Of a stretch of 64,000 bases of DNA, positions 27,580-59,457 are shown one piece after another. Numbering within the stretch: the first letter of the stretch is position 1; every line of letters starts with the position of its first letter. A model generated the notes under the pieces. It was not told where the DNA came from and did no database searches. It saw nothing but the letters and a program-made list of their open reading frames with translations. The position numbers and the translations under genes are program-made. The stretch lies in NCBI GenBank assembly GCA_964016885.1, contig OZ024765.1, forward strand, positions 9,610,001-9,674,000, written 5' to 3'. This DNA comes from Eledone cirrhosa (taxonomy: Eukaryota).

Positions 27580-27617
<38 letters not shown>

Positions 27618-27620
<3 letters not shown>

Positions 27621-27718: not shown

Positions 27719-27883
27719 ATTTCTATATTAAATATTGTATATATTCTGCTAATGTATTGAGTACCTTACTTACTATGGTTACCCTGATCGAACCCGGGAT
27801 ACACACACATATCTATCTATCCATCGATATATCTGTCTACCTACCTACCTACTTATTTGTGTATCCATGTACCTGTCTGTCTA

Positions 27884-27957
<74 letters not shown>

Positions 27958-27992
27958 GCCATCTACCTATCTATATATATCTACATATCGAT

Positions 27993-28100
27993 GAGATTCT
28001 ACAGGACTAGAACTGTTTCATTCTTTAGAAATCATCAGGAATCTCCAGGGATTCCTGATGATTTCTAAAGAATGAAACAGTTCTAGTCCTGTAGAATCTC
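27993..28100. ncRNA. Head-to-head pair of type-I hammerhead motifs forming a near-perfect palindrome in TMCO1 intron 1
   Basis: Plus 28048-28100: GGGATTC CTGATGA TTTC-TAAA-GAAT GAAA CAG-ttctagtc-CTG TA^ GAATCTC. The minus copy (27993-28045) has a perfect 7-bp stem I. Confidence 0.78.
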
Positions 28101-28174
28101 ATCTATATTAAAACTTTTATACTCTGCAATGTATTGAGTACCTTACTGTGGTTACCTCCGATTCAACCCGGAAT

Positions 28175-29265: not shown

Positions 29266-30372
29266 CCATTTGACCATAAGAGAACCCTAACTTTATGGTA
29301 TATATATATATAAACAATGGAGATATATTATCAGTGGTACCCCTTCCACCAGTCTTAGAAACCCTCAAGAATGTTATGTACACTGCTCTACCCTTCCTTG
29401 CTAAACCTTTGATTTTCATTAGCTTTCTTGCAAGCAGGTGCTGTGGGCCTCACCTGTTCTCTAGTCCCGTGTGTGTGACATCACACCTATGCAGGTTCAG
29501 CTGGCCTCCTCCAAGGTATATCTCGTTGGAGGTGTCTTGGGTAATTTTAATGATGGGGACCCCAGTCCCTATCATCTCATTTCTACAGCTGAGTAAACTG
29601 GAGCAATGTGAAATAAAGTGTCTTGCTCAAGGAAACAACACATCACCCGGTCTGAGAATTGAACTCACAACCTTTCGATTGCATGGCCAATGCTCTAACC
29701 ACTGATAAATACACACCGTACACTCTGTAAAATGGTTGGTGATAGGGAGAGCATTCAGCTGTAGAAAACCTGCCAAACAAAGGGCTGGGATTGAGAGGAC
29801 TCTTCATCTGTGTTAAGGACATGACAATTTCCCTAGTGCTTATGCCATGATAAAAGATGAAATGCATTCTGTAGAGCAAGGGATCCTATGTCAGGCTCCC
29901 AGCTCACCTGGAAGTCAGAGTACTCTTGAGTGCTGAGCAGTCTGTAATATGTCTAATTCTTGCTAGCAGAGAAAACTAATGTTAAACAATGATAATGATG
30001 AGGTTTCTCTAGCCCAGAGCCTCTAATATATTTAAACCGGCCATATCCAGCCAGAATTTTCTTACCTCTTTAAGTCCAAACCAGCCATAACTGGCTGCTT
30101 ATACTGATGTTAAGGTTTTGTTCTCGAAATAAATAACATCAAAATCTCATAGAATCGATATTATGTGAGATAATTAGGTAAGATAAAGCCTTTCCCACAA
30201 AAATACAACAGTATATATAGAGTAATTTAAATGCTAAAGGATTAATCCAGCTTTCATTAATCCTGTTTATTTAAAGATGTCTGGCTGCTATTTCTACCAG
30301 CTTGATTAACTACATGGAACCCTCTCCCTTTCCCACATGGATTTATGTTTCTTTCTCTATCTGTTATTGCAG

Positions 30373-30450
30373 GTTTAACATGGCTAATGGTTTACAGAAC
30401 AGATAAATACAAAAAACTGAAATCTGAGGTAGAAAAACAGAGTAAAAAAT
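30373..30450 (+). CDS. TMCO1: TMCO1 exon 2 (GLTWLMVYRTDKYKKLKSEVEKQSKK)
   Basis: ttgcag acceptor, GTAAGT donor, 78 nt, phase-compatible. Confidence 0.96.
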
Positions 30451-30499
30451 GTAAGTAAAATTCTTCAGATATTACAGTGTGGTTTCTAGTTCAGTCCCA

Positions 30500-31188
30500 C
30501 TGTGTGGTACCTTAAACATATATGTCTACTGTAACCCCAGCTTGACAGATATTACAGTGTGGTACCTTACATATATGTCTACTGTAACCCCAGCTTGACA
30601 GATATTACAGTGTGGTACCTTACATATGTATATCTACTGTAACCCCAGCTTGACAGATATTACAGTGTGGTACCTTACAAGTGTATGTCTACTGTAACCC
30701 CAGCTTGACAGATATTACAGTGTGGTACCTTACATATGTATATCTACTGTAACCCCAGCTTGACAGATATTACAGTGTGGTACCTTACAAGTGTATATCT
30801 ACTGTAACCCCAGCTTGACAGATATTACAGTGTGGTACCTTACATATGTATATCTACTGTAACCTCAGCTTGACAGATATTACAGTGTGGTACCTTACAT
30901 ATGTATATCTACTGTAACCTCAGCTTGACAGATATTACAGTGTGGTACCTTACATATGTATATCTACTGTAACCTCAGCTTGACAGATATTACAGTGTGG
31001 TACCTTACTTATGTATGTCTACTGTAACCCCAGCTTGACAGATATTACAGTGTGGTACCTTACATATGTATGTCTACTGTAACCTCAGCTTGACAGATAT
31101 TACAGTGTGGTACCTTACAAGTGTATATCTACTGTAACCCCAGCTTGACAGATATTACAGGGTGGTACCTTACTTATGTATGTCTACT
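30500..31188. repeat. 55-bp tandem repeat, about 12 units, just after TMCO1 exon 2
   Basis: Unit GATATTACAGTGTGGTACCTTACATATGTATATCTACTGTAACCCCAGCTTGACA. Confidence 0.95.
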
Positions 31189-31959
31189 TTATATAATATA
31201 ATGGTTTTGTAGTGACCATACATTCTCTATGCGTGATTTGGCTCAGTTCAGCCAATCAGCGCCAGTAGAAGAGGATGTATCCCTACGCGCCCTGAGGAAG
31301 AAATTCCCCACGAAGATTTGAAGAATCTCTTTCTTGTACCAGAAACTTCGAGCCAGCAATGCACATAATGTAACGGTGCGATATTGCACCCTAGCCTCGC
31401 CGGCTTAACGGCGCTATGGCAAATTCCCTTTTGTAACCTCTTCTTATCTGTAACTTCAACCATATAAGTTAACAAACATTGTTTGTGCTACATCAAAAAT
31501 AAACATACATTTCATCTCTAATTTCTGCTGTTGAAATCATTATTATGTTACTCGTGTCTCAATAACATCTATAATCCATGCTGCTGGAATTGGCGACCTG
31601 ACGAAAGGAATGTTGTAAATACAAAGATGGTAAATAGATCGAGGGACCTTCCCTCACGTCTATCTCGACAAGATAATCCAACGAGGATACTATCACCTAC
31701 CACACTGGCAACTAACGACCCTTCATTCTACATCCTGTTAAAGTTTCTTATATAGGCACAAGGCCAACAATTTTGGGGGAGGGGAAAGTCTATTAAATCG
31801 ACTCCAGTGCGTGACTGGTACTTTATTTTATCAACTCCATAAGGATGAAAGGCAAAGTTAACCTCGGCGGGATTTGAACTCTGATCATAAAGGGGCGTAA
31901 CTCTATGCTGCAAAGCAGGGTGTCCGATGCCCTACCGATACTGCCAATCCACCAATGAA

Positions 31960-32215
31960 AATTATTGTGTACAGTTCTCAGGTGCACTACAACTTATCAA
32001 AGGTGCATGTATAGTACATAGAATAATGTACAAATGTCAGGAAAGTGAACAGTGTATGAGTCATGATATACATGTGAGCCTGTGTATGGAGGGGGGGATA
32101 TCCGGTGTAGTGTTGGTGAATCTCAGGAAGCATGGAGGTTTTAAAGGATGCAGTGTCTCGGCAGATAACAACTGATGCTGGTAGTTTGTTCCATGCTTCT
32201 TCAACTCTGAGCGTG
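31960..32215 (-). mobile_element. CR1-like LINE 3' end
   Basis: FTLRVEEAWNKLPASVV...TASFK motif. Confidence 0.65.
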
Positions 32216-32419
32216 AATTGGCAAATATCAGCCAACACCTCTCCCCTTCATTTTACCATCAATTTTTTTTTTTGGCGGGGGGGGGGGGGTTTACATATTC
32301 CTCGGCTTATATTCAAGTATATACAGGAGCTAATTTAATCATTATTAAGTTGAGGTTTGGAACATAACTTAAGAAAAGTTGTCACATAAAATTATGATGG
32401 AAGGTTTTTTTAGCACTTG

Positions 32420-32880
32420 GTCATCAAAAGAGGGAGATAGGTGTAAAAACCAAACTCACTATCTTCAATTCAGTATTTGTGCCTACTGATAGCTATGGCC
32501 GTGAAGTTTGGTTAATGGCTGAAAGAATTTGATAGCAAATACAAGCAACCGAAATGGGGTTCCTCTGAAGGGTCTTTGCAATTGTTACTCAGTAGGGTGT
32601 GTAACTCAGAGAGTCACTATTTCTCCTTATCAAGCGATCACAGCTCTGATACGGACGTGGTTAGAATGGCTAAGGAAAGAATTGCTGGACAGATTTTACA
32701 GGCAAAAAACCAACCCAAGGGTAGATCCCGAGCGAGATGATTGGATAACATCCATGAACTTGGTTAGTCTCACCTGGGGGGATCCAGCCGGGTTAATTTG
32801 AGACAGCTGCTTCTGATAGGACCCTCTAGAAGGTGTGTCTGATGAATGTCCCCACAACTTACCCAGAAATAAATGGGTGA
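32420..32880 (+). mobile_element. Degenerate RTE/Expander-like LINE fragment
   Basis: LTIFNSVFVPT.SYGREVW..., QATEMGFL, with stop codons. Confidence 0.6.
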
Positions 32881-33227
32881 AGAAAAAGGAAGTTTTTAGA
32901 TAAATATATTTTAGCAACAACAAAAAAAGTTTTAAAAATCAATGAGATTGTCCATATATTTTTCGAAAATCCGGTGCACCCATTATTTATAATATAAACA
33001 GCGGTAATTCGGTGAAATAAGTCTTGGAAGTGATGAAAAAATCGCTCGAAGAGCAAAATTTATTTAAATCGGATTAATTTAACAGTCCAAGGGAAGTAAA
33101 TCTTGTAACGTATCTAGATTTTGATCCTCCCTCTATTGCTATTTTACTCTCTCTATTTCTCCTTTAAACCCTCTATCTATCTCTTTCCTCTCTCTCCCTC
33201 TGTCTCTATAATTGGAAGAAATATATC

Positions 33228-33770
33228 GAGAGAGTAGGTTACATATATTGAGAGGGGGGTAAGAGAGTAAGTTACGTCTATAATGAGAGGGGGAAGAGAG
33301 TAAGTTACGTATATTGGGAGAGGAGGAAGAGAGTAAGTTACGTATAGTGAGAGAGGGGGAAGAGTAAATTACGTATATAGTGAGAGAGGGGGAAGAGAGT
33401 AAGTTACGTATATTGGGAGAGGGGGAAGAGGGTAAGTTACGTATATTGGGAGAGGGGGAAGAGTAAATTACGTATATAGTGAGAGAGGGGGAAGAGAGTA
33501 AGTTACATATATAATGAGAGGAGTAAGAGAGTAAGTTACGTATATAATGAGAGAGGGGTAAGAGAGTAAGTTACGTATATAGTGAGAGGGGGAAGAGAGT
33601 AAGTTACGTATATAATGAGAGGGGTAAGAGAGCAAGTTACGTATATAATGAGAGAGGGGTAAGAGAGTAAGTTACGTATATAGTGAGAGAGGGGGAAGAG
33701 AGTAAGTTACGTATACTGGGAAAGGAGGAAGAGAGTAAGTTACGTATAGTGAGAGAGGGGGAAGAGAGTT
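33228..33770. repeat. Purine-rich 31-36-bp minisatellite
   Basis: GAGAGTAAGTTACGTATATAGTGAGAGAGGGGGAA-type units. Confidence 0.9.
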
Positions 33771-34419
33771 AATATTAAATGTTTTAATACCTCCCTTACT
33801 CTCTCTTCTTCCCCCTCTCTGTATCTTATCTCTTTACTCTCTTTCCCCCTCCTATGTCTGTTTAATTCGTTCTCCCTTACTCTCTCTCTCTGTCTATCAT
33901 TTACTCTCTTTCCTCTCCCTCCCTGTATCTCATCTTTTTACTCTCTTCTCCCCTCCGTCCTTGCCTGTTTAATTCTATCTCCCTTACTCTCTCTATATCT
34001 ATCTATCTTATTGCTATAAACTGAAATCGTAGGTAAATAAATTAATGGCTAATTATTATATAACTAATCAAATAAATAAATATACGTATCGAAATTACGT
34101 TGTTTGGGGGTTGACCGATAAGGAAAATGTGTTGCATTATTTTACTTGCCCAACTTTGCTATATATAGAGAGAGAGAGAGGAGAGAAAGTTTTATTTTAT
34201 TCCACACGGTTAAAAATATAAAGATAAGTTGAAAATACACTTGGAGCTTTTAAGGTTTATTTTCAACGACATATTTGACCGGTTTCACGATTGTTGACGA
34301 TGTATTTAATTAATTATATATATAACAACGTCTGCATTCGGTCGGCAAAAAATTATTCAAACCCTATAAAAGGAAAGGAGATATATTGTGAAAAATAATA
34401 TCTATGTAATATTTTCATA

Positions 34420-37400
34420 AATGTTTATTTTATTCGTGAAAAATAAAAAATAAATGGTGAAAATACGAGGTGACTATATATACATGTCTCTATCTCTCCC
34501 CCTCTCTATATATACATGTCTCTATCTCTCCCCCTCTCTATATACACATGTCTCTGTCTCTCCCCCTCTCTATATATACATGTCTCTATCTCTCCCCCTC
34601 TCTATATATACATGTCTCTGTCTCTCCCCCTCTCTCTATATACATGTCTCTATCTCTCCCCCTCTCTATATACACATGTCTCTGTCTCTCCCCCTCTCTC
34701 TATATACATGTCTCTGTCTCTCCCCCTCTCTCTATATACATGTCTCTGTCTCTCCCCCTCTCTCTATATACATGTCTCTATCTCTCCCCCTCTCTATATA
34801 TACATGTATCTGTCTCAGTCTGTCTGTACTAAGCCACTCTCTGTTGTGTCTCAGAGATTCCTGACAAAGTTTTGGTCAGCCAAAGGTTCCACGTGGTTAC
34901 TATGACAACGTCCTTCCTAACCTTACTGCCATGTCTCTCCCTACAATACTGAGAGGAATAGATATTATGGCTGTTTATATATATATAAATATACATATTA
35001 AATTACATATATATATATATTATATATTATATATGCATTATAAAAATATATATTACATGTATTATATATTCATAATAATATATGTATTATATATATATAT
35101 ATATATATATATAATTATAAAGTATATGTGTTATATATATTATACTATATATATAGTACCAGTAATGCACTGGGTAATTGCTGGCCTTGTGCCTAAAGTA
35201 GAAACAATTATACTATATATATATTTATTGAAACAAATGATAAATGTTTATTCCATTCGTGAAAAATAAGGAAAAATAAGTAAAAAATGGTGAAAATACG
35301 AGGTGACTTGTTAGAAAGTCTGTCAGCAGACGACATTTATTTGGGGGACGCTTGTTTTACCTTACCTCCCACTCCTCTAGATATCTTTACTCCTCCTTCT
35401 ACTCACTTGTTAGTCTTCTCTCTCTATATATCCCCTTTACTTTCTGTCCTTCTCCTTCTCTCTATATATATATAGGTGTGTGTATTTATAACCCTATATG
35501 TATGTGTGTGTCTTTGTATATATATGTCTCAGTGTGTTTACACTACGGAATATGTGTCTCTCGCTCCTCTCTCTCTCTCAATACATGTATGTTTGTCTCT
35601 ATCTCAATGTCTCTCTCCCCCTCTCTATATATACATGTCTCTATCTCTCACCCTCTCTATATATACATGTCTCTGTCTCTCCCCCTCTCTATATATATAC
35701 ATCTCTCCCCCTCTCTCTATATACATGTCTCTATCTCTCCCCCTCTCTATATATACATGTATCTGTCTCAGTCTGTCTGTACTAAGCCACTCTCTGTTGT
35801 GTCTCAGAGATTCCTGACAAAGTTTTGGTCAGCCAAAGGTTCCACGTGGTTACTATGACAACGTCCTTCCTAACCTTACTGCCATGTCTCTCCCTACAAT
35901 ACGGAGAGGAATGGATATTATGGCTGTTTATATATATATAAATATACATATTAAATTACATATAAATAAATATATATATAATATATTATATATGCATTAT
36001 AAAAATATATATTACATGTATTATATATACATAATAGATATATGTATTATGTATATATATAATTATAAAGTATATGTCTTATATATATTATACTATATAT
36101 ATATTTATTGAAACAAATGATAAATGTTTATTCCACTCGTGAAAATAAGGAAAAATAAGTAAAAAATGGTGAAAATACGAGGTGACTTGTTAGAAAGTCT
36201 GTCAGCAGACGACATTTATTTGGGGGTGCGCGAGCGCGTGCTGTGCCTCTTGGACGCTTGTTTTCTACCTCACCTCCCACTCCTCTAGATATCTTTACTC
36301 CTCCTTCTACTCACTTGTTAGTCTTCTCTCTATATATATATCCTTTACATTCTGTCCTTCTCTCTCTCTCTATATGTGTGTGTGTATTCATATCCCTATA
36401 TGTATGTGTGTGTCTTTGTATATATATGTCTCAGTGTGTTTACACTACGGAATATGTGTGTCTCTCGCTCCTCTCTCTCCCTCAATACATGTATGTTTGT
36501 CTCTATCTCAATGTCTCTCTCCCCCTCTCTATACATGTATCTGCCTGTCTCTGTGTCTCCCCCTCTCTCTATATGCATGTATCTGTCTCTCCCCCTCTCT
36601 ATATATACATGTCTCTGTCTCTCCCCCTCTCTATATATACATGTCTCTATCTCTCCCCCTCTCTATATATACATGTCTCTATCTCTCTCCCTCTCTATAT
36701 ATACATGTATCTGTCTTAGTCTGTCTGTACTAAGCCACTCTCTGTTGTGTCTCAGAGATTCCTGACAAAGTTTTGGTCAGCCAAAGGTTCCACGTGGTTA
36801 CTATGACAACGTCCTTCCTAACCTTACTGCCATGTCTCTCCCTACAATACTGAGAGGAATGGATATTATGGCTGTTTATATATATATAAATATACATATT
36901 AAATTATATATAAATATACATATTAAATTACATATAAATAAATATATATATATATTATATATTATATATGCATTATAAAAATATATATTACATGTATTAT
37001 ATATACATAATAGATATATGTATTATGTATATATATATATATATATATAATTATAAAGTATATGTCTTATATATATTATACTATATATATATTTATTGAA
37101 ACAAATCATAAATGTTTATTCCACTCGTGAAAAATAAGGAAAAATAAGTAAAAAATGGTGAAAATACGAGGTGACTTGTTAGAAAGTCTGTCAGCAGACG
37201 ACATTTATTTGGGGGTGCGCAAGCGCGTGCTTTGCCTCTGGAACGCTTGAGTTTTCTACCTCACCTATCTATGAAGAAGTACATATATGTTATGCAGTTC
37301 AGACTAAAAATAAACTATGTTGAAATTAAAATTTATTTGTAAATAATTATTTTTAATAATTAAGATAGAAATAAATATATTAAAAGTCACTCAATTTTTT

Positions 37401-38320
37401 TTTTCTTCTTTTTTGACGATTAAAAATAATTAAAACAAGTCCAAGGGACATAAATCTTGATATTGCACGCATTCTATTCCTCCCCCTTCAATCAATATTT
37501 CTACTCCTCCTGCTACCCCAACGTTAAGTCTTTCTCTCACATTATACCTGTGTATTATACGTCCCTTTACGATCTGAGTTCAAATCCCGCCGAGGTTGAC
37601 TTTGCCTTTCATCCTTACTTTGTCGATAAAATAAAGTACCAGTAATGTACTGGGTAATTGCTGGCCTTGTGCCAATAGTAGAAACAATTATATAAATACA
37701 TCAAAAATACGCCTGTGTTTCACTAAAGCTATTGAAACACTAAACATATAACAAAAAATACAATGGCTTGAGAGAGAATAAATCTATATCTTCATATATA
37801 TGTTTATTCCAATATATATATATTTATTTTCTTCGATATTTATACATTTTCTTTTCTTGTGTTTATTCTGCGAAATATTTGTCTCTCCCCCTCTCTCCTA
37901 TATATATGTCTCTGTCTCTCCCCCTCTCTATATATACATGTCTCTGTCTCTCCCCCTCCCTATATATACATGTCTCTGTCTCTCCCCCTCCCTATATATA
38001 CATGTCTCTGTCTCTCCCCCTCTCTATATATACATGTATCTGTCTCTCCCCCTCTCTATATATACATATCTCTGTCTCTCCCCCTCTCTCTATATACATG
38101 TCTCTATCTCTCCCCCTCTCTATTTAATTGTCTCTGTCTTAGTCTGTCTGTGCTAAGCCACTCTCTGTTGTGTCTCAGAGATTCCTGACAAAGTTTTGGT
38201 CAGCCAAAGGTTCCACGTGGTTACTATGACAACGTCCTTCCTAACCTTACTGCCATGTCTCTCCCTACAATACTGAGAGGAATGGATATTATGGCTGTTT
38301 ATATATATATAAATATATAT
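34420..38320. repeat. Tandem duplication of a roughly 0.95-kb unit (3 adjacent copies plus a 4th partial), each with an internal ~32-bp CT-rich minisatellite
   Basis: Shared block CTAAGCCACTCTCTG...CCCTACAATAC at about 34830, 35782, 36730, 38153. Confidence 0.92.
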
Positions 38321-38879
38321 AAGCAGAAGGGATATTTAATTTGTTGGAAATTCAACAAATATAATAGAATAAATATGGTTTATAAATATAGTTTCCATTT
38401 ATTTACTATCATTGTATATATATATATATAGTAATAATAATAAATGTGAAGACTAAAATCCAAAGAGGGCTCGATAAGGATAAATATATATCAAATATAT
38501 AAGAACCGTAGAGCAAATATTTATTAAAATAACAGATTATTATTATTACTATATATATGTATGTATACACAGTGTAACCCCCCCCCCCCCTTCCTCGGTA
38601 TTCGTGGTTCTGGTTATTCGCGGAATTTTCCTTAGAACCTAACTAATAAATGTTCATGAAAACCACCACATATTCGCGGAATCGTAAATATCTTCCGCGG
38701 TTTTTTTTATGGGGGTATTTTTTTTTTTTGTGGCAATATATATTTTTCACGCTTTTTAACGTCAAATTGTTAATAACAATATACCGTATTTGCCGGCTTA
38801 TTGAACGCCCCCTTTTTTATATATTTTTTGACATTTATAAGCATTTTTATGGACCACGTCCAATTATCGCGGTTTTTCA

Positions 38880-38911
<32 letters not shown>

Positions 38912-39399
38912 TTAGGTTTGTTGGTTCACCACTGGATAGAACTGGCCATTCCGTATAGCCAACCTTGGTGTAATATTAGGGAGAGCACTCGACGAATTCG
39001 TCTTCGTTTGTGTTGTTGGTGGTACGAGTACGGACTTAATTATTATAAAATAACAAGAGGTTGGACTGGTGTAATTCCTTAAAGGTTTATTATACTATGA
39101 ACATTTCAATGACCGGGTTCAGTATGAATCCGGTGACATCATCAGGTATTCGAAATTTAACAAAGGAATATAATAGACACAATCCATGGGGCTGAAAAGG
39201 CCGAGAGACATTTAGCAGTTTCCAGTCCGGTTGGCCGCCCTCAACATATATATATATATGGCTTTAATGATTCATTTATATTTTGTACATTGCATTATAT
39301 ACTGTCCAACCAGGGATGTAGAATTTCTCCCTTCCATACTCTCTCCGCTAGTTTTTATATTTTTTCTCTTTTCTCATTTTTATAAATATGTGTTCTTAT

Positions 39400-39580
39400 A
39401 AGAATAGATCCCCCATTTAAGGACAGTTTTTAAAAAATTAACAGTACAAGGGAAATAAGTCTGTATAAGAAGACGTACAGGATTTACTTCCCTTTGGGCC
39501 GATAATTGAATCGTTTGTATTTGTTTTTAAGTTACGATACAACACACCGAGCCTTTAGCTGGTTGCTCTACCAGCTAAAA
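39400..39580 (+). mobile_element. Possible Helentron/HINE-like 3' end
   Basis: AAGGGAAATAAGTC...GATTTACTTCCCTT subterminal inverted repeat and terminal hairpin TTTAGCTGGT-TGCTCT-ACCAGCTAAA; related motifs near 33090 and 37440. Confidence 0.4.
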
Positions 39581-40069
39581 TATGTCTCACGAAATAAATA
39601 AATGAATAAAACTTGACCAAGAAACACCAACCTATTTGCCGTTATCACATTCATAACCTTATAATTAGACATTGTTCGTGAAAAACAATGTAGAAAGGGT
39701 AGAAGTAAATCTTAAACTTCGCAGACGATAAACACATGTTTGTGTTTATACGTACATATACACCTCTATTATGAATTTCAACAATAATTATGTTTATTAT
39801 ACATAAATATATTGTATATGCCATTATGTACATCTTATTTATGAATCACGCTATATTAATGCTAATTAATATATGAAATATATATGAATTCACTACGCCT
39901 GTATTTGGTTAAAACTATTCAAACATTTAACATATAAAAGAAATCATTGCTTTGAGTGAAAAGAGGGAAAATATTAAGGAAACGAATTTATATCTTCATA
40001 CATATTTATTCCATTATATATTTTCTTTTTTCCTTTTTTTTTTAATATATATATATAAATTTAAAAAAA

Positions 40070-40320
40070 ATGTGTCCCTTAATCGGGTCCGCAAAACACA
40101 TGCCAGGACAGTCCATCATCTCCATCGATGGGAAATGAAAGACAGCCCAGCATGTGACTGTGTGGACCCTGGCTAGACAGTACTGCATTTTGTACGGGAT
40201 TGCTACCTCAGTTGTTTTCCTCGGGGAAATCTAATGCTACAAAAGACGCCTTAGTCTGGCTCATTAATCTCGATCTGCCTCTCTCTAACTATTGTACACA
40301 TGTCGTACGACAAGAAGAGT
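40070..40320 (+). mobile_element. Ingi/Vingi-like LINE 3' end with CCHC knuckle
   Basis: LNRVRKTHAR..HLHRWEMKDSPACDC..*TVLHFVRDC, tail CGTACGACAAGAAG. Confidence 0.6.
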
Positions 40321-41732
40321 AAATAAAAGCTGTAGTTATGTATAAAAACGAAGACAAAAAATAAATCATAAATGTATGTCTATTTTAATAAATATTCTCC
40401 ATCCTGTCGTCAGGGAGCAACATGGCGGGTGACATATTAGGGAGGGGGTAAGGTGGCAGGAGTCTTCAGACGAAAGGGTTAATAATTGTTTCTACGTTTG
40501 GCATAAGGCCAGCAATTACCCAGTGCATTACTGGTACTTTAGTTTATCGACCCCGTAAGGATGAAAGGCAAAGTTAACCTCGGCGGGATTTGAACTCAGA
40601 ATGGCAAGGACCGTAACTCTATACGTCAAAGCATGGCGCCCGACCCTCTACCGAAATAATGATGACACACACTCACACACAACAACATATCAGTTATAAT
40701 AGGCACTCAAAACAACCAGGAAGCATGTAATCAAAATTTTCAATGAATGTTTATTCCATTCTTCAATTGTCACTGTCCACCCCTCTCAGCAACGCCTTCG
40801 CTATTTTGTCTGCGAGGCGCAGCTAAAACATTGCCTCTCGGATTATGGTGGACACTGTCGCTTCTTCCCCCAGTTTCCTGTCTTTCGCTGTTTAATTTCT
40901 ATACCTTATTTTTCTTTCTATAATTATTGTATAACATTTTTTTTTTTTTAAATACACACACGCACAAACGAAGATCACGATGAAATATCTTACAAAATTC
41001 TGAGCAGACGACATTAAATCGTGTATATGTCTATGTGTGTGATTGCGTGTGGGTGTGTCTTTGTATGTGTGTAAGTGATCATATACATAATTGAGTGTGT
41101 CCTTATAAGTAATCGTGTGTGTGAATGTCTAGATAGGTGATTACGTGTGTGTGAGTGTCCATATACTTAATTGTGTGTGTGTTTTTATACGCAATTGTGT
41201 GCGTAAGTGTCTATATACGTGATTGTGTGTGTGAGTGTCCATATATGTAACTGTGTGTGTGAATAATAAATAAATATGTCTTGGCATGAATGTTTCAAGC
41301 TGTGATTATGTCACAGCTATCTCATAGATTCGATATTATGTGAGGTAAAGCCTTTACCATTAAAATATAATAGTATATATAAAATAATGTGAGCGCTAAA
41401 GGGGTCGTATTGCTGACATGACAAAAGGCACCTAGTCCACCCTGTAGATGTGCTTGGTATTAGGAAGTGCATCCAGCCATAAAAACCAAGCCAGAAACAG
41501 TTCTATGTGAGCAAAATACAACCATCTGATCTGGTCTCACAATCAGACAACTCGTCTAACCCATGCTAGCCTGGAAAAATGGATGTTAAACGATGATGAT
41601 GATGATATATATGAATTATGTTCTCTGTGTCTTGTTCTTCTCCCTTTTCAATAGCCCCTTGCAATTTAGTGGCTTTATTGCCTTGCTTGTTTTGAGTAAA
41701 TTAAAAAATGAAATGTGTTTTGTGTTTTCCAG

Positions 41733-41792
41733 TGGAAAAACAAAGAGAAGCTGGATTAGATGCAGCTGACAGGAACCAGAAGAAAAAATTAG
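41733..41792 (+). CDS. TMCO1: TMCO1 exon 3 (LEKQREAGLDAADRNQKKKL)
   Basis: ttttccag acceptor, GTAAAT donor, 60 nt. Confidence 0.93.
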
Positions 41793-42189
41793 GTAAATAT
41801 GGGCTAAACTGTATCATTTTCTTTCTTTATGTGTGTCTGTCTATCTATCATTCTCCCTCTCTCTCTCTATCCAATCCAATCCCTTCTCACTCCTATTGGA
41901 GGGACCTCCACTGCTTTCTGTTTGGTTTTGGTCATGTCAGGGGTGTAACCATACTTACCACACTTAGCCAATTGTGGGTTGGTGAGGCTATTTAACTCAT
42001 AGTGGAGGTGAATAGCTGTTGACTCTGTGGAGTTCATCCGCCCTTTTTAACAGCTCTTGTTTTTTATGCTGCTAAAGTTCTACCTACCTTCCTCACCAGA
42101 TCAGGGTCTGGTACAGGAGCTGGTTTGGTTGCCGACCATTCAACCATGAAGCAGGTTGTACATGGTATCTGCAGCAAGCCTGACCTGGC

Positions 42190-42231
<42 letters not shown>

Positions 42232-42451
42232 TTTCTATTCTAAGGCGGGTAAAATTCCCGATGGATCCATGGACGAGTTCTCTCCAGCGGTCTCTGTCCC
42301 TCATTATCGCTGCCATGTCCTGCGTTTCCAACAGATCAGTGTCTGTCCTTAGGGCATCAACATACGTTAACCTTGGTCTTCCTCTTCTAGTGAGTCCATG
42401 TAGGGGCTCCCAAATTAGCATTTGTATATATATATATATTCATATTTATAT

Positions 42452-43857
42452 ATCATCATCATCATCATCATCAACGTTTAACGTCCGTGTTCCACGCTTG
42501 CATGGGTTTGGACGGGGGTAGTCCCACTTGAGGCAAGAGTGATTGTCTTGCTCGCATAGGACTGTCTGGCAGGTTTTCTACAGTTGGATGCCCTTCCTAA
42601 CACCAACCACATTTACAGTGTGGGTCTGGGAGGTTTTTACCGTGTTGCCTACACGGCCACATTACAGCGTGGACTGTGTGTTTTTTTGTCGTGACACCTA
42701 CACGATCTCATTTGTTTCGGCCTCGATGGCGCGGCACCAACATAACTTTACATAGAACGGGGTGGTGTGGATCGGGTGGGGGTGGTGGTGGTGGGACGGG
42801 GTGTATTTTGTTAGAGATGCCTACTGGCTGGAGTAGGTTTTACTATATATTTAGGTAAGGCGGGTCTTCTCTGTTACTGAGTACCGCCAAAGGTCTCGGT
42901 CCAGTGACATTGTCTTGGAGAGGTGTAAGTGTGTGATGTCGGAGTTTATCAGCTCGTCCCAGGTTTTTCTAGGTCTGCCTATTCCGTGACTACCGTCTAT
43001 CTTTATTGCCCTGCACTTTGTTATACAGCTATCGACTTTCATGCGCATCACGTGTCCATACCAACGTAGCCTTCTCTCGAGTAAACAACATCTGATCCCT
43101 CTTATCTCTAATTTTTTCCTTAGTTCGTTTATGCTTTGCCGTTCACGTATATTACTGTTACACATCCAGCGGAGCATGCAAGCTTCGTTCCTCTCTAGTC
43201 TGCATATATCCTCTGCACACAATGCCCAGGTCTCACTGCCATGCAGCATTGCTGTTCGTATGCAGGCATCGTACAACCTGCCTTTCATTTTTAGTGAGAA
43301 CCCTTTAGCAGCTAATAGTGGTATAAGCTCTCTGAACTTTTTCCAACCAGTTCTGACTCTAGCTACAGTACTTTCAGAGCACCCTCCCCCACTGCTGATT
43401 TTATCGCCCAGGTAACGGAAGCTGTCCACTATTTCTATAGAACCCTCTGCGCAATTGAAAGAGCTAGTAGTTTGTGGGCACTTGCTGCTACTTATTGCAC
43501 CAGAGCACCGGCCACATGTAAAATCTATGTTCTTAGTTAGCTTACCTGTGATCCCACTACATCTTTTATGCACCCATACTTTGCATTTAGGACATAAAAT
43601 GGAGTTTCTACCTACGCCTTTCCTACACACCGAGCACGACCATTTCCCAGAAGGGACCGCCGCCTTGTTTTCTTTCCTACAAACTAGTACTTTGGTCTTA
43701 GCCAGGTTAATTTTAAGTCCTTTTGACTCTAGGCCGTGCTTCCATGTTTGGAATTTCTTCTCTAGCTCGGCCATTGATTCCGCTATGAGTGTCAGGTCGT
43801 CTGCGTATAGGAGTTCCCATGGGCAGCCTGTCTTGAACTCCTCTGTTATAGCCTGAA
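42452..43857 (-). mobile_element. 5'-truncated RTE-clade LINE with intact frame in TMCO1 intron 3
   Basis: PWELLYADDL RT motif near 43800, a 307-aa ORF to 42851, then a roughly 400-bp 3' UTR and (GAT)n tail. Confidence 0.93.
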
Positions 43858-44047
43858 GGGCTATATATTCATATTTATATATATATATTTGTTCAATGAA
43901 AAAGAGTTAGTTGATTTAGAATCAGCTGACATATATATATACAGGGAGTTATAACGTGAAGTTACTGTAGGTTCACATCAGTGGCAAAGTGTAGAGCTAA
44001 ACAGAAAACATAATGAAGGCTTAACAAATTGTCCTTGTATTATTATT

Positions 44048-44079
<32 letters not shown>

Positions 44080-44434
44080 TTATATATAGTAATAATAAAT
44101 GAATATGAAGACCAAAATTCGAAGAGGGCTTGATAAGAATTGTATGTATATATATATATATATATAATAAAAAAAGTATATATAAACCTGTAGAGCAAAT
44201 ATTTATTATTAGTACAGATTAAAGTTTAGGCAAAGAATTGCTTAATAGGGTGAAAGCAGCAATTCTTTGCTTAAACTATAATCTACACTAATAATAAATG
44301 TGTGTGTAAATATATATATATATATAGTGTGTGTGTGTGTGTGTCTATATATTTCTTTCTATATATAATATTTATGTGCATGTGTATATATAGATATATA
44401 TATATATGTTTATATATTTATCTGTCTTTCCCAG

Positions 44435-44481
44435 AACGCCAAGAAGAAAAGTTAAAAAACAACAGTCGAGATTTGTCTTTG
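44435..44481 (+). CDS. TMCO1: TMCO1 exon 4 (ERQEEKLKNNSRDLSL)
   Basis: tttcccag acceptor, GTAAGT donor, 47 nt. Confidence 0.95.
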
Positions 44482-44661
44482 GTAAGTTTACTAAAATATT
44501 TTCTACATGCAAATTATTAATAGTTGCCTCTGCTGCTGTTTAGTCTTGCAGTTGAACCATGTTCTAGCCATAACTATACCATCCTTTTTTTTTTATTTTG
44601 CATGTACACAGTCACTTCCTCCAGACTAATGGAAAAAATTGTCATTTTTATGGCTCTAAGT

Positions 44662-45407
44662 CAGTAGTGCTGGTATCATAACAAAATGCACCCAATCTAT
44701 CGTGTAAAGTGGTAGTGCTGGTGTCATAACAAAATACACCCAATCTATCGTGTAAAGTGGTAGTGCTGGTGTCATCACAAAAGGCACCCAGTCCACCCTT
44801 TAAGGTAGTAGTAGTGCTAGTGTTACAACAAAGAGCACCCAATCTATCGTGTAAAGTGGTAGTGCTGGTGTCATCACAAAAGGCACCCAGTCCACCCTTA
44901 TAAGGTAGTAGTGCTAATGTTACAACAAAGAGCACCCAGTCTATCGTGTAAAGTGGTAGTGTTAGTGTCATGACAGAAGGCACCCAGTCCACCCTTTAAG
45001 GTAGTAGTAGTAGTGCTAGTGTTACAACAAAGAGCACCCAATCTATCATGTAAAGTGGTAGTGCTGGTGTCATCACAAAAGGCACCCAGTCCACCCTGTA
45101 AGGTAGTAGTGCTAGTGTTACAACAAAGAGCACCCAGTCTATCGTGTAAAGTGGTAGTGCTGGTGTCATCACAAAAGGCACCCAGTCCAGCCTTTAAGGT
45201 AGTAGTAGTGCTAGTGTTACAACAAAGAGCACCCAGTGTATCGTGTAAAGTGGTAGTGCTGGTGTCATCACAAAAGACACCCAGTCCACCCTTTAAGGTA
45301 GTAGTAGTGCTAGTGTTACAACAAAGAGCACCCGGTCTATCATGTAAAGTGGTAGTGCTGGTGTCATCACAAAAGGCACCCAGTCCACCCTGTAAGGTGG
45401 TAGTGCA
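44662..45407 (+). repeat. Alternating dimeric (about 96-102 bp) version of the 48-bp minisatellite
   Basis: Alternating CTATCGTGTAAAGTGG and CCACCCTTTAAGGTAG units. Confidence 0.9.
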
Positions 45408-45559
45408 AGTCTGATTTCTCTTAAGCCCAGTTTTCCTCACCTGATCCATACAAGAAAGTATTTTCTTCCCTGATAAAACATCCCTGTAGTGTACAAACTT
45501 ATCTAAATATCGAAGTACAATGTATGAATATTGATTGATTTATATTTGGTTTATTCCAG

Positions 45560-45627
45560 GTAAAAATGAAATCAATGTTTGCCATTGGTTTTGCCTTTAC
45601 AGCACTTTTAAGTATGTTTAATTCCAT
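45560..45627 (+). CDS. TMCO1: TMCO1 exon 5 (VKMKSMFAIGFAFTALLSMFNSI)
   Basis: ttattccag acceptor, GTGAGT donor, 68 nt. Confidence 0.96.
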
Positions 45628-45663
45628 GTGAGTATATTCAATTTCTCTTGTTTGGTCTCTCTA

Positions 45664-45694
<31 letters not shown>

Positions 45695-45710
45695 ATTTAT
45701 ATACATATAT

Positions 45711-46157
45711 CTAAGGCGGGTAAAATTTCCGAGATCCATGGAAGAGTTCTCTCCAGCGGCCTCTGTCCTTCATCTCCCTGTGACCACTGTCTGTCCTTAG
45801 GGCATCAATATATGTTATCCTCGGTCTCCCTCTTCTAGTGTGTCCGTGTAGGGGCTGCCACGGGAGCACTGAGTGCAGTGTCAACTCTGAATGTCGGTGA
45901 GCATGTCCAGCTAATCTCAGTCTCCTCTGTGTCACTCTCGAGCTGACTTTTGGGAGGCCCCCCGTACAGCTCTGAGTTCTTCATCCTCAGTGTATACTGA
46001 TTAATGTTCAGAGCCATCCTCAGCAGTCTCGTGTAGCAGACATCCACCATCTGAGTGTGTCTCTTGGTCAGTGTCTGAGTCTCAGACCCGTACAGCAGCA
46101 GACTCCACTGTAGCAACGAAGAGACAGATCTTCAGGTCTTTACGAAGGTCCGACCTC
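45711..46157 (-). mobile_element. Second RTE-like LINE family, 3' fragment (other copies about 42235-42420 minus and 48790-49312 plus)
   Basis: LLYGSETQTL...RRLRLAGHAHRH...RRGRPRITYIDAL. Confidence 0.8.
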
Positions 46158-46536
46158 ACATAAAACATGGTAAACTCCCCAGTGTTGGTGATTTACAAGA
46201 TAATAATTGTTTCTACTTTTGGCACAAGGCCACCAATTATCCCAGTGCATTACTGGTACTTTATTTTATCGACCCCGTAAGGATGAAAGGCGAAGCTAAC
46301 CTCGGCCAGATTTGAACTCAGACCGCAAAGGGACGTAACTCTATGTTGCAAAGCATGGCGTCCAACCCTCTACCGATACTGCCAATCCACCGCCTTCTAC
46401 ATGATAATAATAATAATAATATTAATTGTTTCTACATTTGGCACAAGGCCAGCAATTTGTTTTGTCCATTTTTAATTTAATTTTTTTTTTTTTTTTTTTG
46501 TTTTTTCCCTTCATCTCATCTGAAAATCTGATCCAG

Positions 46537-46681
46537 TTTTGATGGCCGAGTAGTTGCTAAGTTACCATTTACACCGATCTCCCTGATGCAGGGACTGTCA
46601 CATCGTAACCTTGCCGGAGATGACTACACCCATTGTTCATTCATCTTTCTGTATATACTCTGTACTATGTCTATACGTCAG
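46537..46681 (+). CDS. TMCO1: TMCO1 exon 6 (FDGRVVAKLPFTPISLMQGLSHRNLAGDDYTHCSFIFLYILCTMSIRQ)
   Basis: atccag acceptor, GTAAGA donor, 145 nt; strongly conserved TMCO1 motif. Confidence 0.97.
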
Positions 46682-47679
46682 GTAAGAACATATATACATA
46701 CATATATATATATATCTTTTCTACATTTCATTTCTTTACAAACTGTCTCCATTATATGTGAAGGCGCATGGCTTAGTGGTTAGAGCATTGGGCTTGCAAT
46801 CGAAAGGTTGTGAGTTCAATTCTCGGACTGAGTGATGTGTTGTTTCCTTGAGCAAGACACTTTATTTCACGTTGCTCCAGTTTACTCAGCTGTAGAAATG
46901 AGATGATAGGGACTGGTGTCCCTATCATTAAATCACCCAAGACACCTCCAACGAGATATACCTTGGAGGAGGCCAGCTAAACCTGCATAGGTGTGAGCTG
47001 TCACACACACATTATAGAGAAGCTGTCTTCATTTTTTCTTTCAGTTTGTGACAGCGACTCTCTCACTATGAGACATTTCACTGCGTTCTCCACGCTCTAC
47101 CTATGAAGATCATGTTTACAATTTTCAAATTTTTTTAAAATGCCAAATTAAACAAGGCCGACACTAGGCACATAAAAACAGCTTACCCTTCTCTGTTAAA
47201 GGAAGCACTTTATGGTTTGTCTCCCTGTTGACCAGTGGTCATTGGTCTCTGTCCTCTGAGGCAATTTTGCCCATCGCTGTATTTGACAGCACTTAGCTGT
47301 TCTTGAGATGAGTTTTCTCATTTTTATATGTATTCAATCGAATACACTCTCGCTTCATCTTGATCAGAGACCACATTGTTGTATATATCATCATCATCAT
47401 CGTCATCGTTTAATGTCCATCTTCCAAGCTAGCATGGGTTAGACGGGTTTGTCCCACTTGAGGCAAGATTGGTCAGGTGACCATGTCTCGCTCATACAGA
47501 ACTGTTTCTGGTAGGTTTTCTAAGGCCGGATGCCCTTCCTAACACCAACCACATTTACAGTGTGTACTGGGAGCCTTTTTACCTTGTCTCCTACACGACC
47601 ACTTTACAGTGTGGGCTGGATGTTTTGTGGTACCAACATAACATATATATATATATATCATGATAATGGTATCATCATC

Positions 47680-48420
47680 ATCGTTTTACGTCCGCTTTTC
47701 CCTGCTTGCTAGGGTAGGACAGGTCCTATTCAGCACAGCATCTCTCCATTCGTCATCTCCTCCGTAAGCTTCAGTGATCTGAGGTCTGTTCTCACCACCT
47801 CTGCCCATGTTTTTTGTGGTCTTCCTCTACTGGCATTTCTTGGCACTTCTTCACCCAGTGGTCATCCTCCATGCGCATCACTTGTCTATACCATCTCAGT
47901 CTTCTCTCCCACACACTACAACTTATCCTTCTTATACAGTTTCACTCTCAATTCGACCATGCTTGGTCGTTCACACACATTGACATTGCACATCCATCAG
48001 AGTATTCTTGCTTCATTTCTCTCCAGCCGTCACATATCCTCAGCAGTGGCTGCCCATGTCTCACTACCATGCAGCATCGCACATCTTACACAGGAATCAT
48101 ACAACCGGCCTTTCGTACGCAGGGAGAAACCCTTCTTTGTCAGCAGAGGAAGCAGCTCCCTAAACTTCTTCCAACCCGTTCTTATTCTAGATACTATGGC
48201 CTCAGAACCCCCCTCCTATGCTAATCTGATCATCTAGGTACCTGAAGCTATCAACCACTTCTATAGAACCTACCTGCATTTGAAAAATCTGTCTATCACT
48301 GCCACTTCTGTCAAATTTCCCTGTTCACGTCTACTGATACGTAGTTTTCCCTACCTGTTAGTTTGCCTGCTATCCCTCTACATCTCTTGTGTACCCAAGA
48401 TCTGCATTGTGTACATTTTA
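47680..48420 (-). mobile_element. Degenerate RTE LINE fragment
   Basis: Similar to the copies at 16400-17000 and 43000-43600 (GWKKFRELLPLL, MLHGSETW), with frameshifts. Confidence 0.8.
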
Positions 48421-48529
48421 TAGAATTTATATATATATATATCATGATGATGGTATTTATATATATATGTGTGTATATATATTTCATTTTATTGTTTTCC
48501 ATTCTAATTGTTGTTCTTGTTGTTTCCAG

Positions 48530-48622
48530 AACATCCAAAAATTGCTGGGTTTGGCCCCATCAAGGGTTGCTAATAAACAAGGAGTAGGGTTTTTCTCACC
48601 CCCGCCTCAATTTGTAAAATAA
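48530..48622 (+). CDS. TMCO1: TMCO1 exon 7, terminal (NIQKLLGLAPSRVANKQGVGFFSPPPQFVK*)
   Basis: tttccag acceptor, TAA stop; spliced CDS totals 552 nt = 183 aa + stop. Confidence 0.95.
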   Translation, partial: NIQKLLGLAPSRVANKQGVGFFSPPPQFVK

Positions 48623-48650
48623 CTTAAAATGAAATGAGATGAAATATGAA

Positions 48651-51259: not shown

Positions 51260-51393
51260 TTAAATATACAGTTCCATTTTTTCCATGTGGAAGAGTCCAT
51301 TTCTTTAGTGGAGGGGAGTCACCTTTTCTACAGAAGTAATTTTTTTTTTCTTTTTAACAAGGTGTTTATACTTAGTATGGGACCCAATCTTTT

Positions 51394-54300
51394 CTATAAA
51401 TAAGGGGCCCATCCTATGTACATCTGGCAAAGGAGTTTCTCATTTGTGGCTTCATGAATCAGGTAGTTCACTTGACCCTCAACTGACAAGGGCAAGCCTC
51501 TGGGTTTGGTTTTCGATGCATGGATTCCTCGCATGCGATGTTCAATCATCTGTACGTGGGTCATTGCTTGCTCGTTGGTGATCTCACCAGAACTGACCTG
51601 GTGTGAGCGCTGTCCCCGGGTCAGTTTCTGCCATTCGACGAGAGGGTCATAGATAAATGGCTTCAACACACTCATCAGAGGGTCCATCTGATTGCGTAAC
51701 ACTTTAAGGGTCACTTCGCAGGCCTGTCGGAAAATGCCTTCGTAACCCATGGGTCCCATAGCTTTGACCATATTGTTGGTCAGTCGGAATGGCACACGCT
51801 CGGGCCACTCAAACGTCTCACCTTTGTTAAAGAGGCAGTTAAAATCAACGTGGACGCAGTCGCCTGTGGTGGAGTCCATCAGAATATTTTCTCCGTGTCG
51901 ATCACCAAGTCCAAGGATGTATCCAACCATATCCATGACGGCGGAGGTCCGAGCATAAGCAAGCCTGCCGTTATACCAAGCTGTCGGGTCAGGAAACGTG
52001 CGAAGGAACCACTCATAGAAGACACAGGGGTGCAGCCCAAGAAGCAAGTTGAACAGGTCCAACTTCCTTTCCAGCGGCGCCTGAAGAGCTGGGATGTGGT
52101 TCTTCAACTCCCTATTACTAATCTGTAGCCCCTTCTCACGGTACAACTTGCGCAGTATGTACTGCAACCCACTCGTGTTGGTCACCCACTCGATGATGCC
52201 ACATTCTTCATTCAAAGGTATCACGGTGTATGTACGGATGTGGAGCTGACGTTTCCTCGCCTCCGGGTCTTTGCGCAGGAATTTATTAACAATCGTTGTG
52301 AACTCCATCAAACGACAGTCCTTCCTGAGGTCATCTTTCGGTTTACACATCATCACGTACAGGTGACCGTCACTGCCCTTTATCGTGATCTTTTTCGGTT
52401 TCTGCAATGATGGTAAGATCTCAATTGTGTCCTCGAAGCTACTAATGTACACGGTGTCCCCTGGGAAAGGGTCGTGGTCTACTTTGTTGTCGGTCTGTGT
52501 CATCGGTAGCGTGACTGTCATCGATGACTGTAAGGGGACGATGATGTTACTGAAATTTGGATCATCGAGAAGACGTTTCAGAGATTTGAAGTGTTGAGAG
52601 AGACTGAGGGGTTGTGTATCTGGACAATGTCGTTCGGACAGTTCCAACAGACGCTCTGTGAGTTTATTGGCATCAAGTAAGAACTTGCCAAGCTCTTCCT
52701 TCATAAGTTTCGCTTGGTTAAATATCTCCTGGCACCTCTTCACACGTTTCGGATATGATGATTTTGAGACAGCCATCAGCATCCAGACGGCCTGAGCTGG
52801 GAATGTGTATAACAGCTTTGCAATTATTTTCACAAGGTGGCGAAAAACATCCGAGTTTGCGTGACAGATTCGAGAGATGAGCTGTGAAAAAGCTGTGAAG
52901 AGTTGGTACGGTGCCAATTTGCGACTTATCTGCTCTATAACTTTATTCAAGTTCTGTAAAATGGTTTTCTGTGACTGTAGCTTCTGAAGATAAACTGTTT
53001 GGTTGGATGTCAATGATGTCTGCTCTCGTAGCTCCGACTGTACGACAATTGAGCCGTAATCTAACCACAGACTAAGAAGCCTCGGCAGAGACTGGTAGAT
53101 GTATTGGTTACCGTACTGTAGCGATGTACCGTAGTTTTTTACAACAAATATGTTAAACTCGCCCTGCTTCACCGAGTTTTCGTTGTCATCTATTAAACTG
53201 CTCTTCATCTTGTCGTAGTATTTAGCGAGGTAGAAGTAACCGTCTTCCCATGCTGAGCAAGAGTCTGTGACTTCGCGGTACTGCTTCAGTACAGTGTTGC
53301 TGTCGGTGTTGGCCGTCTCGTCACAGTAGTGGGTGTATAGAAGTTGAGCCTGGGCATACGTAAACAGCTTCTTTTTCGCATCCTTCGACATATCTTTCTT
53401 CAATTGGGCCAAGTTGGGGAAATGCACAGCCATGCCTTTCTCGAGGCAAGAGAGGGCCTGGTCATTCTGGCCCTTTTCCCAGAACCATTTCGCTTTCTCT
53501 AGACAGTACTCGGGCAGATTTGAAGAAGCCGCTTGAATGAGCGAGCCGTAGGCTGTCTGGAGGTAACCAGCTTCACGTGCTGCCGTCGCTGTGTCGAGAA
53601 GCCATTTTCCAATCTGCTCGGTGCAATTGGAACAGTTTGCCAGCGTGATAAGGGTGCGTCTCAGTGTCAGCACGGGCTCCTTGATGCGAAACGGGGACTG
53701 CATCAGTTTCAAGCGTGCGTCCCACTGTGACAGGAGTTCATCGAGACTCATGGAATCGGCCAGGTGCTGCTGGTTGCTATGGTTCCAGCCGAACTGATGG
53801 CCCGCCTGCGAGTCAAATATAATCTTTTTGGCCTGTTCAATCTCATTGAGCATGTGCAGTCGGACTATGTATTCATAGCCACGAAGGTAGGAGCAGCTCT
53901 CCATACTAGCAGCTGACAGTGGACCCATTAATTCTATACGTGCACTGTTCAAGAGCTTCTGATAGCTTTCTTCCCGTTGGTCCTTAATGGCTAAAAGGAT
54001 TTTCCCCAAATTCACAACCCAGGCATTGTTTTCTTTCTCCAGCTTAACATAGGATTCCAGTTTGCTCCAGTCCCCTAGTTTAGAGGTGGCCTCAATGCGG
54101 TAAGTGTTTAGCTGTGTGCTCCACGAAGGGTGATTAGCAATAATTCCATCGGCATGGAGGAGGGCCTTATTCAGCTGTCCCAGTTCCATCAAACTACGTA
54201 ACCATCCATGATGATGCGAGATTTCTTCCGGTTCCAACTGGACAGCCCTTTCGTAACAGGCCTCTGCGTCTTGATACTGCCCGATGCTTTGATGCGCCAG

Positions 54301-59457: not shown

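What the first reader, a model, noticed from the sequence alone, without database searches (positions are those of the whole stretch)
51394..59457. Intronless 8-kb ATR in an intron-rich genome
Seen: 2687 codons without an intron, stop or TE, next to a TMCO1 whose 552-nt CDS spans 21 kb. Established: vertebrate ATR has dozens of exons. Inference: a functional retrocopy of an unusually long mRNA, or RT-mediated wholesale intron loss, possibly replacing the parent gene. An A-rich run (minus strand A5GA10, 51355-51340) preceded by TATAAA lies about 40 nt after the stop and could be a poly(A) remnant (weak evidence).
Basis: partly seen in the sequence, partly recalled or inferred. Interest (0 to 1): 0.72.

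Follow-up and report, generated by a model that had tools for sequence, protein, structure and literature searches.

The report
Intronless ATR kinase replaced its parent
This octopus-type animal's only detected copy of ATR, a central DNA-damage kinase, is one unbroken 8-kb coding stretch, likely a reverse-transcribed mRNA copy that replaced the original intron-containing gene, and a group of worm-like (annelid) sequences shows the same loss, apparently independently.

Summary
Confirmed. Window 51394-59457 (-) is one stop-free 2687-codon frame with the complete ATR domain set. It is the only ATR detected in the 3.0-Gb genome, while four other genes tested (three sister kinases, RAD17) and the neighbour TMCO1 are exon-split. 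Short-read contigs of the same organism and of a second octopod (8.5% diverged, mostly synonymous) cover it with no gaps, so it is not an assembly artefact or contaminant. An intron position shared by mussel and vertebrate ATR (residue 404/405) is absent, so this is loss, not the ancestral state. An uninterrupted 2645-aa ATR on a 58.6-kb contig of a squid/cuttlefish relative suggests, indirectly, that the loss predates the octopus-squid split. Four metagenome contigs of an annelid-like clade also carry uninterrupted full-length ATR frames: a probable independent loss. Best reading: an orphan retrogene of unusual length (0.6); in-place cDNA-mediated intron loss is the main rival (0.25). Synteny cannot separate them, because coleoid chromosomes are mixed. 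The poly(A) remnant is weak: no target-site duplication, not conserved. No RNA data. Not found in my literature searches or in the scan's earlier notes.

The parts
51394..59457 (-). ATR coding sequence, single uninterrupted frame, 2687 aa (N-HEAT 71-557, UME 1142-1243, M-HEAT 1497-1720, FAT 1789-2129, kinase 2367-2610, FATC 2656-2687)
   Evidence: covered without gaps by contigs of runs X1, X2 (5' part) and X5
51340..51370 (-). TATAAA followed 9 nt later by an A-rich run; possible 3' end signal or poly(A) remnant, weak
   Evidence: no flanking duplication, not matched in run X5
59708..60055 (.). CpG-rich non-coding block conserved in the second octopod; likely the ATR promoter or 5' UTR region (candidate donor at 59948, acceptors at 59819-59793 on the minus strand, untested)
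   Evidence: X5 contig matches with 42 substitutions and 17 gap letters; CpG o/e 1.27 against 0.54 for window 1-51393 and 1.33 at the TMCO1 start
27229..48625 (+). TMCO1, 7 coding exons; intron-rich neighbour, convergent with ATR
62523..62773 (-). Last exon (PAN domain) of the upstream neighbour, a lectin/TSP1-like/PAN gene; shows that ATR is not nested in that gene
   Evidence: Pfam PAN_1; homologue P0455 aligns through to the stop and to upstream exons in L013 and L014
42851..43774 (-). LINE-type retrotransposon fragment inside a TMCO1 intron (context: reverse-transcriptase sources are common here)
   Evidence: PHD hit; RVT_1 weak hit in flank L015; family label RTE-like is recalled

Best explanation
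This is the only ATR kinase gene detected in the genome, its whole 8,064-nt coding sequence lacks introns, and it is likely an orphan retrogene: a full-length spliced ATR mRNA copied into DNA by a retrotransposon's reverse transcriptase, which then replaced the multi-exon parent. Shown: intact frame and catalytic motifs, one copy, mostly synonymous change against a second octopod, absence of an intron position shared by mussel and vertebrates. Inferred: germ-line reverse transcription by a LINE enzyme, insertion beside or evolution of a CpG-rich promoter, loss of the parent, and a date in the coleoid ancestor (before about 275 Mya). The gene has also changed place at least once since Argonauta and the Octopus group split. 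The protein is predicted to do the ordinary ATR job, replication-stress and DNA-damage checkpoint signalling.
For: Single copy: 1 of 6 kinase-domain matches is ATR, the other 5 are 34-47% identical short exons of other PIKKs; 6 FATC loci, only one ATR-type; the middle 700 aa match one place only (stricter first look). Not an artefact: one 8269-nt X1 contig covers 51273-59511 with 4 differences and 0 gaps; two X5 contigs cover 51391-59510 with 568+119 differences and 0 gaps. Selection: 33 of 35 listed C-terminal X5 differences are synonymous; 21 of 33 changed N-terminal codons are synonymous, none a stop. Ancestral intron lost: Mytilus DNA-derived exon fragments end at the column where vertebrate isoforms skip or extend, window residue 404/405. 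Gene-specific: SMG1-, mTOR- and DNA-PK-like kinases, RAD17, TMCO1 and ARPC2 are exon-split. All-or-none loss up to the ATG fits one retroposition. CpG-rich upstream block parallels 9 of 10 mammalian orphan retrogenes (PMC4772013). Position differs in Argonauta. Age: P0004 is decapodiform, 2645 aa on a 58.6-kb ENA contig, and 7 of the 8 ENA rows on contigs over 100 kb were single-exon fragments, i.e. called without splicing.
Against: No target-site duplication and no remnant of a parent. Synteny is uninformative: ATR and TMCO1 lie on different sequences in 17 of 17 non-cephalopod molluscs compared, but TMCO1 and ARPC2 are also apart in 5 of 5, as expected from coleoid chromosome mixing (PMC9068888), so the ancestral site is unknown. 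Retroposition often truncates the 5' end (PMC5470649), which makes a full 8-kb copy rare. The decapodiform evidence is one protein call without its DNA, and one ENA row (P0286) is a full-length TMCO1 on a 104.7-kb contig, so ENA calls are not proven intron-blind. Exon structure in Argonauta, Sepia and Nautilus was not seen. Only one ancestral intron position was demonstrated; the number of introns lost is not measured.
Confidence: 0.6

Rival explanations
1. In-place loss: full-length or overlapping ATR cDNAs recombined with the native gene and erased every coding intron while keeping the native promoter; the now compact gene later moved with ordinary rearrangements.
For: Explains the single copy and the absence of a parent remnant or target-site duplication without needing a new promoter. 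Synteny does not exclude it (PMC9068888).
Against: Such loss is recalled to be 3'-biased and partial; here no coding intron remains even near the ATG while neighbours and paralogues are exon-split.
Confidence: 0.25
2. Several younger, separate retropositions: one in the Octopus-group ancestor (landing between TMCO1 and the PAN gene, leaving the A-run) and another in decapodiforms, with Argonauta keeping an intron-containing gene at the old site. This is still retrogene replacement, with a different date.
For: In Argonauta TMCO1 and ARPC2 share a 35.66-Mb scaffold 19 accessions apart, but ATR is on a 5.38-Mb scaffold. The A-run is uncommon by chance. The annelid-like clade shows that the event can recur.
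Against: Needs two rare events where one suffices; a 15-nt tail is unlikely to survive since the split from Octopus (87% protein identity) and is not matched in X5.
Confidence: 0.12
3. Ancestral intron-poor state in molluscs, assembly artefact (mRNA contamination) or foreign DNA.
For: An annelid-like clade is also intronless, which could hint at an older shared loss.
Against: Mytilus has coding introns, one shared with vertebrates; scallop, abalone and Mya models have isoforms; the protein nests among cephalopod ATRs and apart from the annelid clade; genomic contigs of two species reproduce the frame.
Confidence: 0.03

Closest known systems
Amphioxus SYCP1 retrogene replacement (Garstang and Ferrier 2018, PMC5803294; passages read)
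   Same: Single coding exon, multi-exon parent absent, multi-exon orthologues elsewhere, invertebrate.
   Different: About 3.2 kb against 8.06 kb here; the new site of SYCP1 is known, the ancestral site of ATR is not; SYCP1 is meiotic, ATR is a general checkpoint kinase.
Human and mammalian orphan retrogenes (Ciomborowska 2013, PMC3548309, passages; Carelli 2016, PMC4772013, passages and section 13)
   Same: Parent lost, strong purifying selection, CpG-rich promoter in most; RNF113 shows repeated replacement.
   Different: Those sets hold 25 and 10 cases in mammals; I did not see their length tables, so 'longest known' is not claimed. Expression and rescue data exist there, none here.
Human ATR / yeast Mec1 (PDB 23ew_A, 9l4d_A, 5x6o_C)
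   Same: Whole domain order and kinase motifs; orthology by tree.
   Different: Gene structure only: vertebrate ATR is multi-exon with exon-skipping isoforms, which this gene cannot make.

Membership tests
ATR/Mec1/Rad3 PIKK | N-HEAT, UME, M-HEAT, FAT, kinase, FATC in order, ending at FATC | tested here: met
ATR/Mec1/Rad3 PIKK | Kinase motifs intact (KPKDD, DRHGEN, DFN; motif roles recalled) | tested here: met
   residues 2370, 2516, 2536
ATR/Mec1/Rad3 PIKK | Closer to ATR than to ATM, mTOR, SMG1; nests among named ATRs | tested here: met
   1818 vs 237 bits; tree
ATR/Mec1/Rad3 PIKK | ATRIP binding and CHK1 phosphorylation | not testable with these tools
   needs experiment
Orphan retrogene | No introns in the coding sequence where orthologues have them | tested here: met
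   one ancestral position shown directly
Orphan retrogene | No multi-exon parent in the genome | tested here: met
   limited by assembly completeness and search sensitivity
Orphan retrogene | Intact and under purifying selection | tested here: met
   on the 71 X5 differences that the tables listed within the ORF, of about 687
Orphan retrogene | Located at a site other than the ancestral parent's | tested here: inconclusive
   neighbours are themselves unlinked in outgroups
Orphan retrogene | Poly(A) remnant and target-site duplication | tested here: inconclusive
   A-run present and uncommon, no duplication of 9 nt or more, not conserved; expected to decay in old copies
Orphan retrogene | Transcribed from a recruited or new promoter | not testable with these tools
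   no RNA run was listed; CpG-rich conserved block is indirect
In-place cDNA-mediated intron loss | Gene stays among ancestral neighbours | tested here: inconclusive
   ancestral neighbours unknown
In-place cDNA-mediated intron loss | Partial, 3'-biased loss with 5' coding introns kept (recalled feature) | tested here: not met
   no coding intron left

The most novel reading that the evidence does not exclude
ATR, one of the longest essential conserved mRNAs, has been wholly replaced by a processed full-length copy at least twice independently in lophotrochozoans, in coleoid cephalopods and in an annelid clade (where new single introns have since appeared), and has moved again within octopods. 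That would make ATR a recurrent retro-replacement target and suggest selection for a compact, splicing-independent checkpoint gene in transposon-rich, large-intron genomes.
Probability: 0.4. Interest if true: 0.72.

Novelty: new member of a known kind. Interest (0 to 1): 0.56.

Why it matters
Retrogene replacement is described as rare and the example I read in detail is 3.2 kb. An 8-kb essential kinase, stripped of coding introns in two animal lineages while its sister kinases keep theirs, shows that full-length copying of very long, mRNAs can be fixed. It gives a natural test of whether losing introns changes ATR regulation (no exon-skipping isoforms, faster transcription under replication stress), a rare genomic marker for dating cephalopod and annelid splits, and a practical convenience: cephalopod ATR can be amplified or targeted from genomic DNA.

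Tried and rejected
Nesting of ATR in an intron of the upstream PAN gene: rejected, that exon is terminal. Target-site duplication: only a 7-8-nt chance-size match at 61035. Second ATR or parent remnant: none (one search used a stricter first look). Pathway-wide intron loss: the one RAD17 match sits in a 70-aa frame, so not supported; ATRIP, CHK1 and TOPBP1 were not searched. Expression: no RNA holder listed, no evidence either way; the RAD-seq run X6 barely covers the ORF. Neighbour genes of the annelid-like loci: 0 of 91 flank frames hit Pfam, and flank similarity was repeat-like, so their synteny is unknown. Synteny as a discriminator: uninformative. Most vertebrate and mollusc isoform differences could not be matched to shared intron positions; only 404/405 was. 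No structure or complex prediction was run; it would not bear on gene structure. Literature: 8 searches and a term search in the Sepia officinalis genome paper (0 hits) found no report of an intronless ATR; database gene pages with exon counts were not available, and supplements were not read, so the exon count may be on record unremarked. Scan notes: nothing on ATR.

Full report
Observation. The window holds one long non-repetitive reading frame, 51394-59457 on the minus strand, 2687 codons. It carries every ATR domain in order, intact kinase motifs, and matches ATR structures at 1818 bits against 237 for ATM. Against Octopus bimaculoides (87.2%), Argonauta (81.4%) and a decapodiform protein (65.8%) the largest indel is 8 aa, so nothing intron-like is read through. 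TMCO1 next door has 7 coding exons over 21.4 kb. The upstream neighbour ends in a PAN-domain exon at 62523-62773; a WD40 gene I read as NUP43 (label recalled) and ARPC2 lie about 70-110 kb further on. ATR sits between two gene ends and is not nested.

Real and single. A contig of run X1 covers 51273-59511 with 4 differences and no gap, and two contigs of run X5 (another organism, rich in the same repeats, matching the PAN exon but not its introns, hence DNA) cover 51391-59510 with 687 differences and no gap. X1 may be the assembly's own sample and is not independent; X5 is. A search of the 3.0-Gb genome with the last 368 aa gave 6 matches: this gene and 5 short exons at 34-47% identity, which I read as SMG1, mTOR and DNA-PK from their motifs (labels recalled). 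FATC gave 6 loci, one per expected PIKK, the other five in frames of 27-85 aa. The middle 700 aa matched only here (stricter first look). RAD17 gave one match in a 70-aa frame. The tree of the last 1050 residues of 45 sequences puts the protein next to the Octopus cluster inside a cephalopod clade (support 1.00).

Under selection. Of 35 listed X5 differences in the C-terminal part, 33 are synonymous taken singly (two of the rest and one of these share a codon, leaving one amino-acid change). Of 33 changed codons in residues 117-207, 21 are synonymous, 12 not, none a stop. These 71 are the differences that the tables printed, of about 687. A block at 59708-60055 is conserved in X5 and has CpG o/e 1.27, like the TMCO1 start (1.33) and unlike the window (0.54): likely the promoter.

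Loss, not ancestral state. Two Mytilus protein calls on 1.5-1.7-kb contigs are one exon flanked by read-through, and the exon's end falls in the same alignment column where piranha, snake, reedfish, budgerigar and donkey isoforms skip or extend, window residue 404/405. That intron is therefore likely bilaterian and is missing here. Scallop, abalone and Mya models also list isoforms. Only this one position was matched; the total number lost is not measured, and 'dozens of exons' is recalled.

Age. Besides X5, P0004 is a 2645-aa ATR, sister to the Sepia cluster, on a 58,557-nt ENA contig. I examined 15 of the 25 ENA rows seen in the TMCO1 and ARPC2 look-ups; 11 are single-exon fragments with read-through, including 7 of the 8 on contigs over 100 kb; one (P0286) is full length on a 104.7-kb contig and is a counter-example. 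P0004 thus likely marks an uninterrupted or at least very compact gene in a decapodiform. The Sepia pharaonis model equals the last 1637 aa of a relative without a gap, compatible but not proof. With the octopus-decapodiform split at about 275 Mya (PMC9068888, passages) the loss would be coleoid-wide; I put this at about 0.65. No Nautilus sequence appeared among the 120 listed of 1662 hits.

Position. ATR, ARPC2 and TMCO1 share a chromosome and near-consecutive accessions in O. bimaculoides. In Argonauta, TMCO1 and ARPC2 share a 35.66-Mb scaffold but ATR is on a 5.38-Mb one, so ATR moved in one lineage after that split. Using contig length as a label, ATR and TMCO1 are on different sequences in 17 of 17 non-cephalopod molluscs (10 with both sequences over 20 Mb), and ATR and ARPC2 differ in 3 of 3 Mytilus species and 2 limpets; but TMCO1 and ARPC2 also differ in 5 of 5. 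Coleoid chromosomes are mixtures of ancestral groups (PMC9068888), so this cannot show where ATR came from.

A second lineage. The metagenome scan matched 596 stretches, confirmed 181 and kept 80, ranked so that uninterrupted genes are favoured; I analysed the first 27. Nine have Paralvinella as best hit; the eight placed in the tree form a clade sister to it (1.00). Four (L034, L036, L037, L039) hold uninterrupted frames of 2690-2702 codons on 8-15-kb contigs; three more are partial and unbroken to the contig edge; L038 has one 481-nt intron with an 8-nt direct repeat across both junctions, absent from five relatives; L033 has an acceptor before residue 2105. An acceptor-like motif lies 22-38 nt before the ATG in 4 of 5 by pattern and in the fifth by eye, pointing to a 5' UTR intron and to genomic DNA. 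Whether these hosts are generally intron-rich was not shown, and the exon structure of Paralvinella ATR was not seen. Since Mytilus keeps an ancestral intron, the annelid and cephalopod losses are likely independent.

Mechanism. Complete loss in one gene while neighbours and paralogues stay split is most simply one reverse-transcription event. LINE families including RTE-BovB and CR1 belong to an old expanded coleoid repeat set (PMC8967140, passages); an unchecked scan note reports spliced retrocopies in this genome (e1-9581210). Orphan retrogenes are a known class (PMC3548309, PMC4772013, PMC5803294). The hallmarks of young insertions (PMC5470649, passages) are weak here: the A-run is uncommon but has no duplication and no match in X5. 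I give retro-replacement in the coleoid stem or with unknown date 0.6, in-place cDNA conversion 0.25, separate younger retropositions 0.12, ancestral state or artefact 0.03.

Novelty. A new, unusually long member of a known kind. Eight literature searches (listings and abstracts seen; passages read only for the papers cited) found no report of intronless ATR; supplements and database gene pages were not seen. Interest 0.56.

Noticed in passing
L034:6570-14678, L036:2127-10205, L037:2134-10206, L039:137-8209: Uninterrupted full-length ATR frames in an annelid-like clade, each with an acceptor-like motif just before the ATG.
   Followed up: partly
L038:7559-8039: Single 481-nt GT-AG intron with an 8-nt direct repeat across both junctions, absent from five relatives: looks like a transposon-derived intron gain.
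   Followed up: partly
L033:568-569: Acceptor before residue 2105 in the most divergent member of that clade; a second, different intron, gain or remnant not settled.
   Followed up: partly
P0286 (ENA, 104,737-nt contig): Full-length 181-aa TMCO1 of the Aplysia cluster on a long contig; either an intron-aware call or an intronless TMCO1 in a gastropod.
   Followed up: no
L040, L042: Uninterrupted 1004- and 422-codon ATR frames grouping with the coral sequence on 2-3-kb contigs; DNA or transcript not known.
   Followed up: no
window 62523-62773, L013:6646-6825, L014:1429-1683 (all minus): Exons of a gene with C-type-lectin-like, TSP1-like (recalled) and PAN modules just upstream of ATR.
   Followed up: partly
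L031 (about 30 kb left of the window), minus: Exons of a charged coiled-coil gene with a weak DUF4670 hit (KIAA2012-like, label recalled).
   Followed up: no
window 56394-58393: CpG o/e drops to 0.34-0.50 in this part of the ATR frame against 0.7-0.9 elsewhere, a pattern that could reflect gene-body methylation.
   Followed up: no
window 52027: Runs X1, X4 and X5 all differ from the window at this synonymous site: a polymorphism or a base error in the assembly.
   Followed up: no
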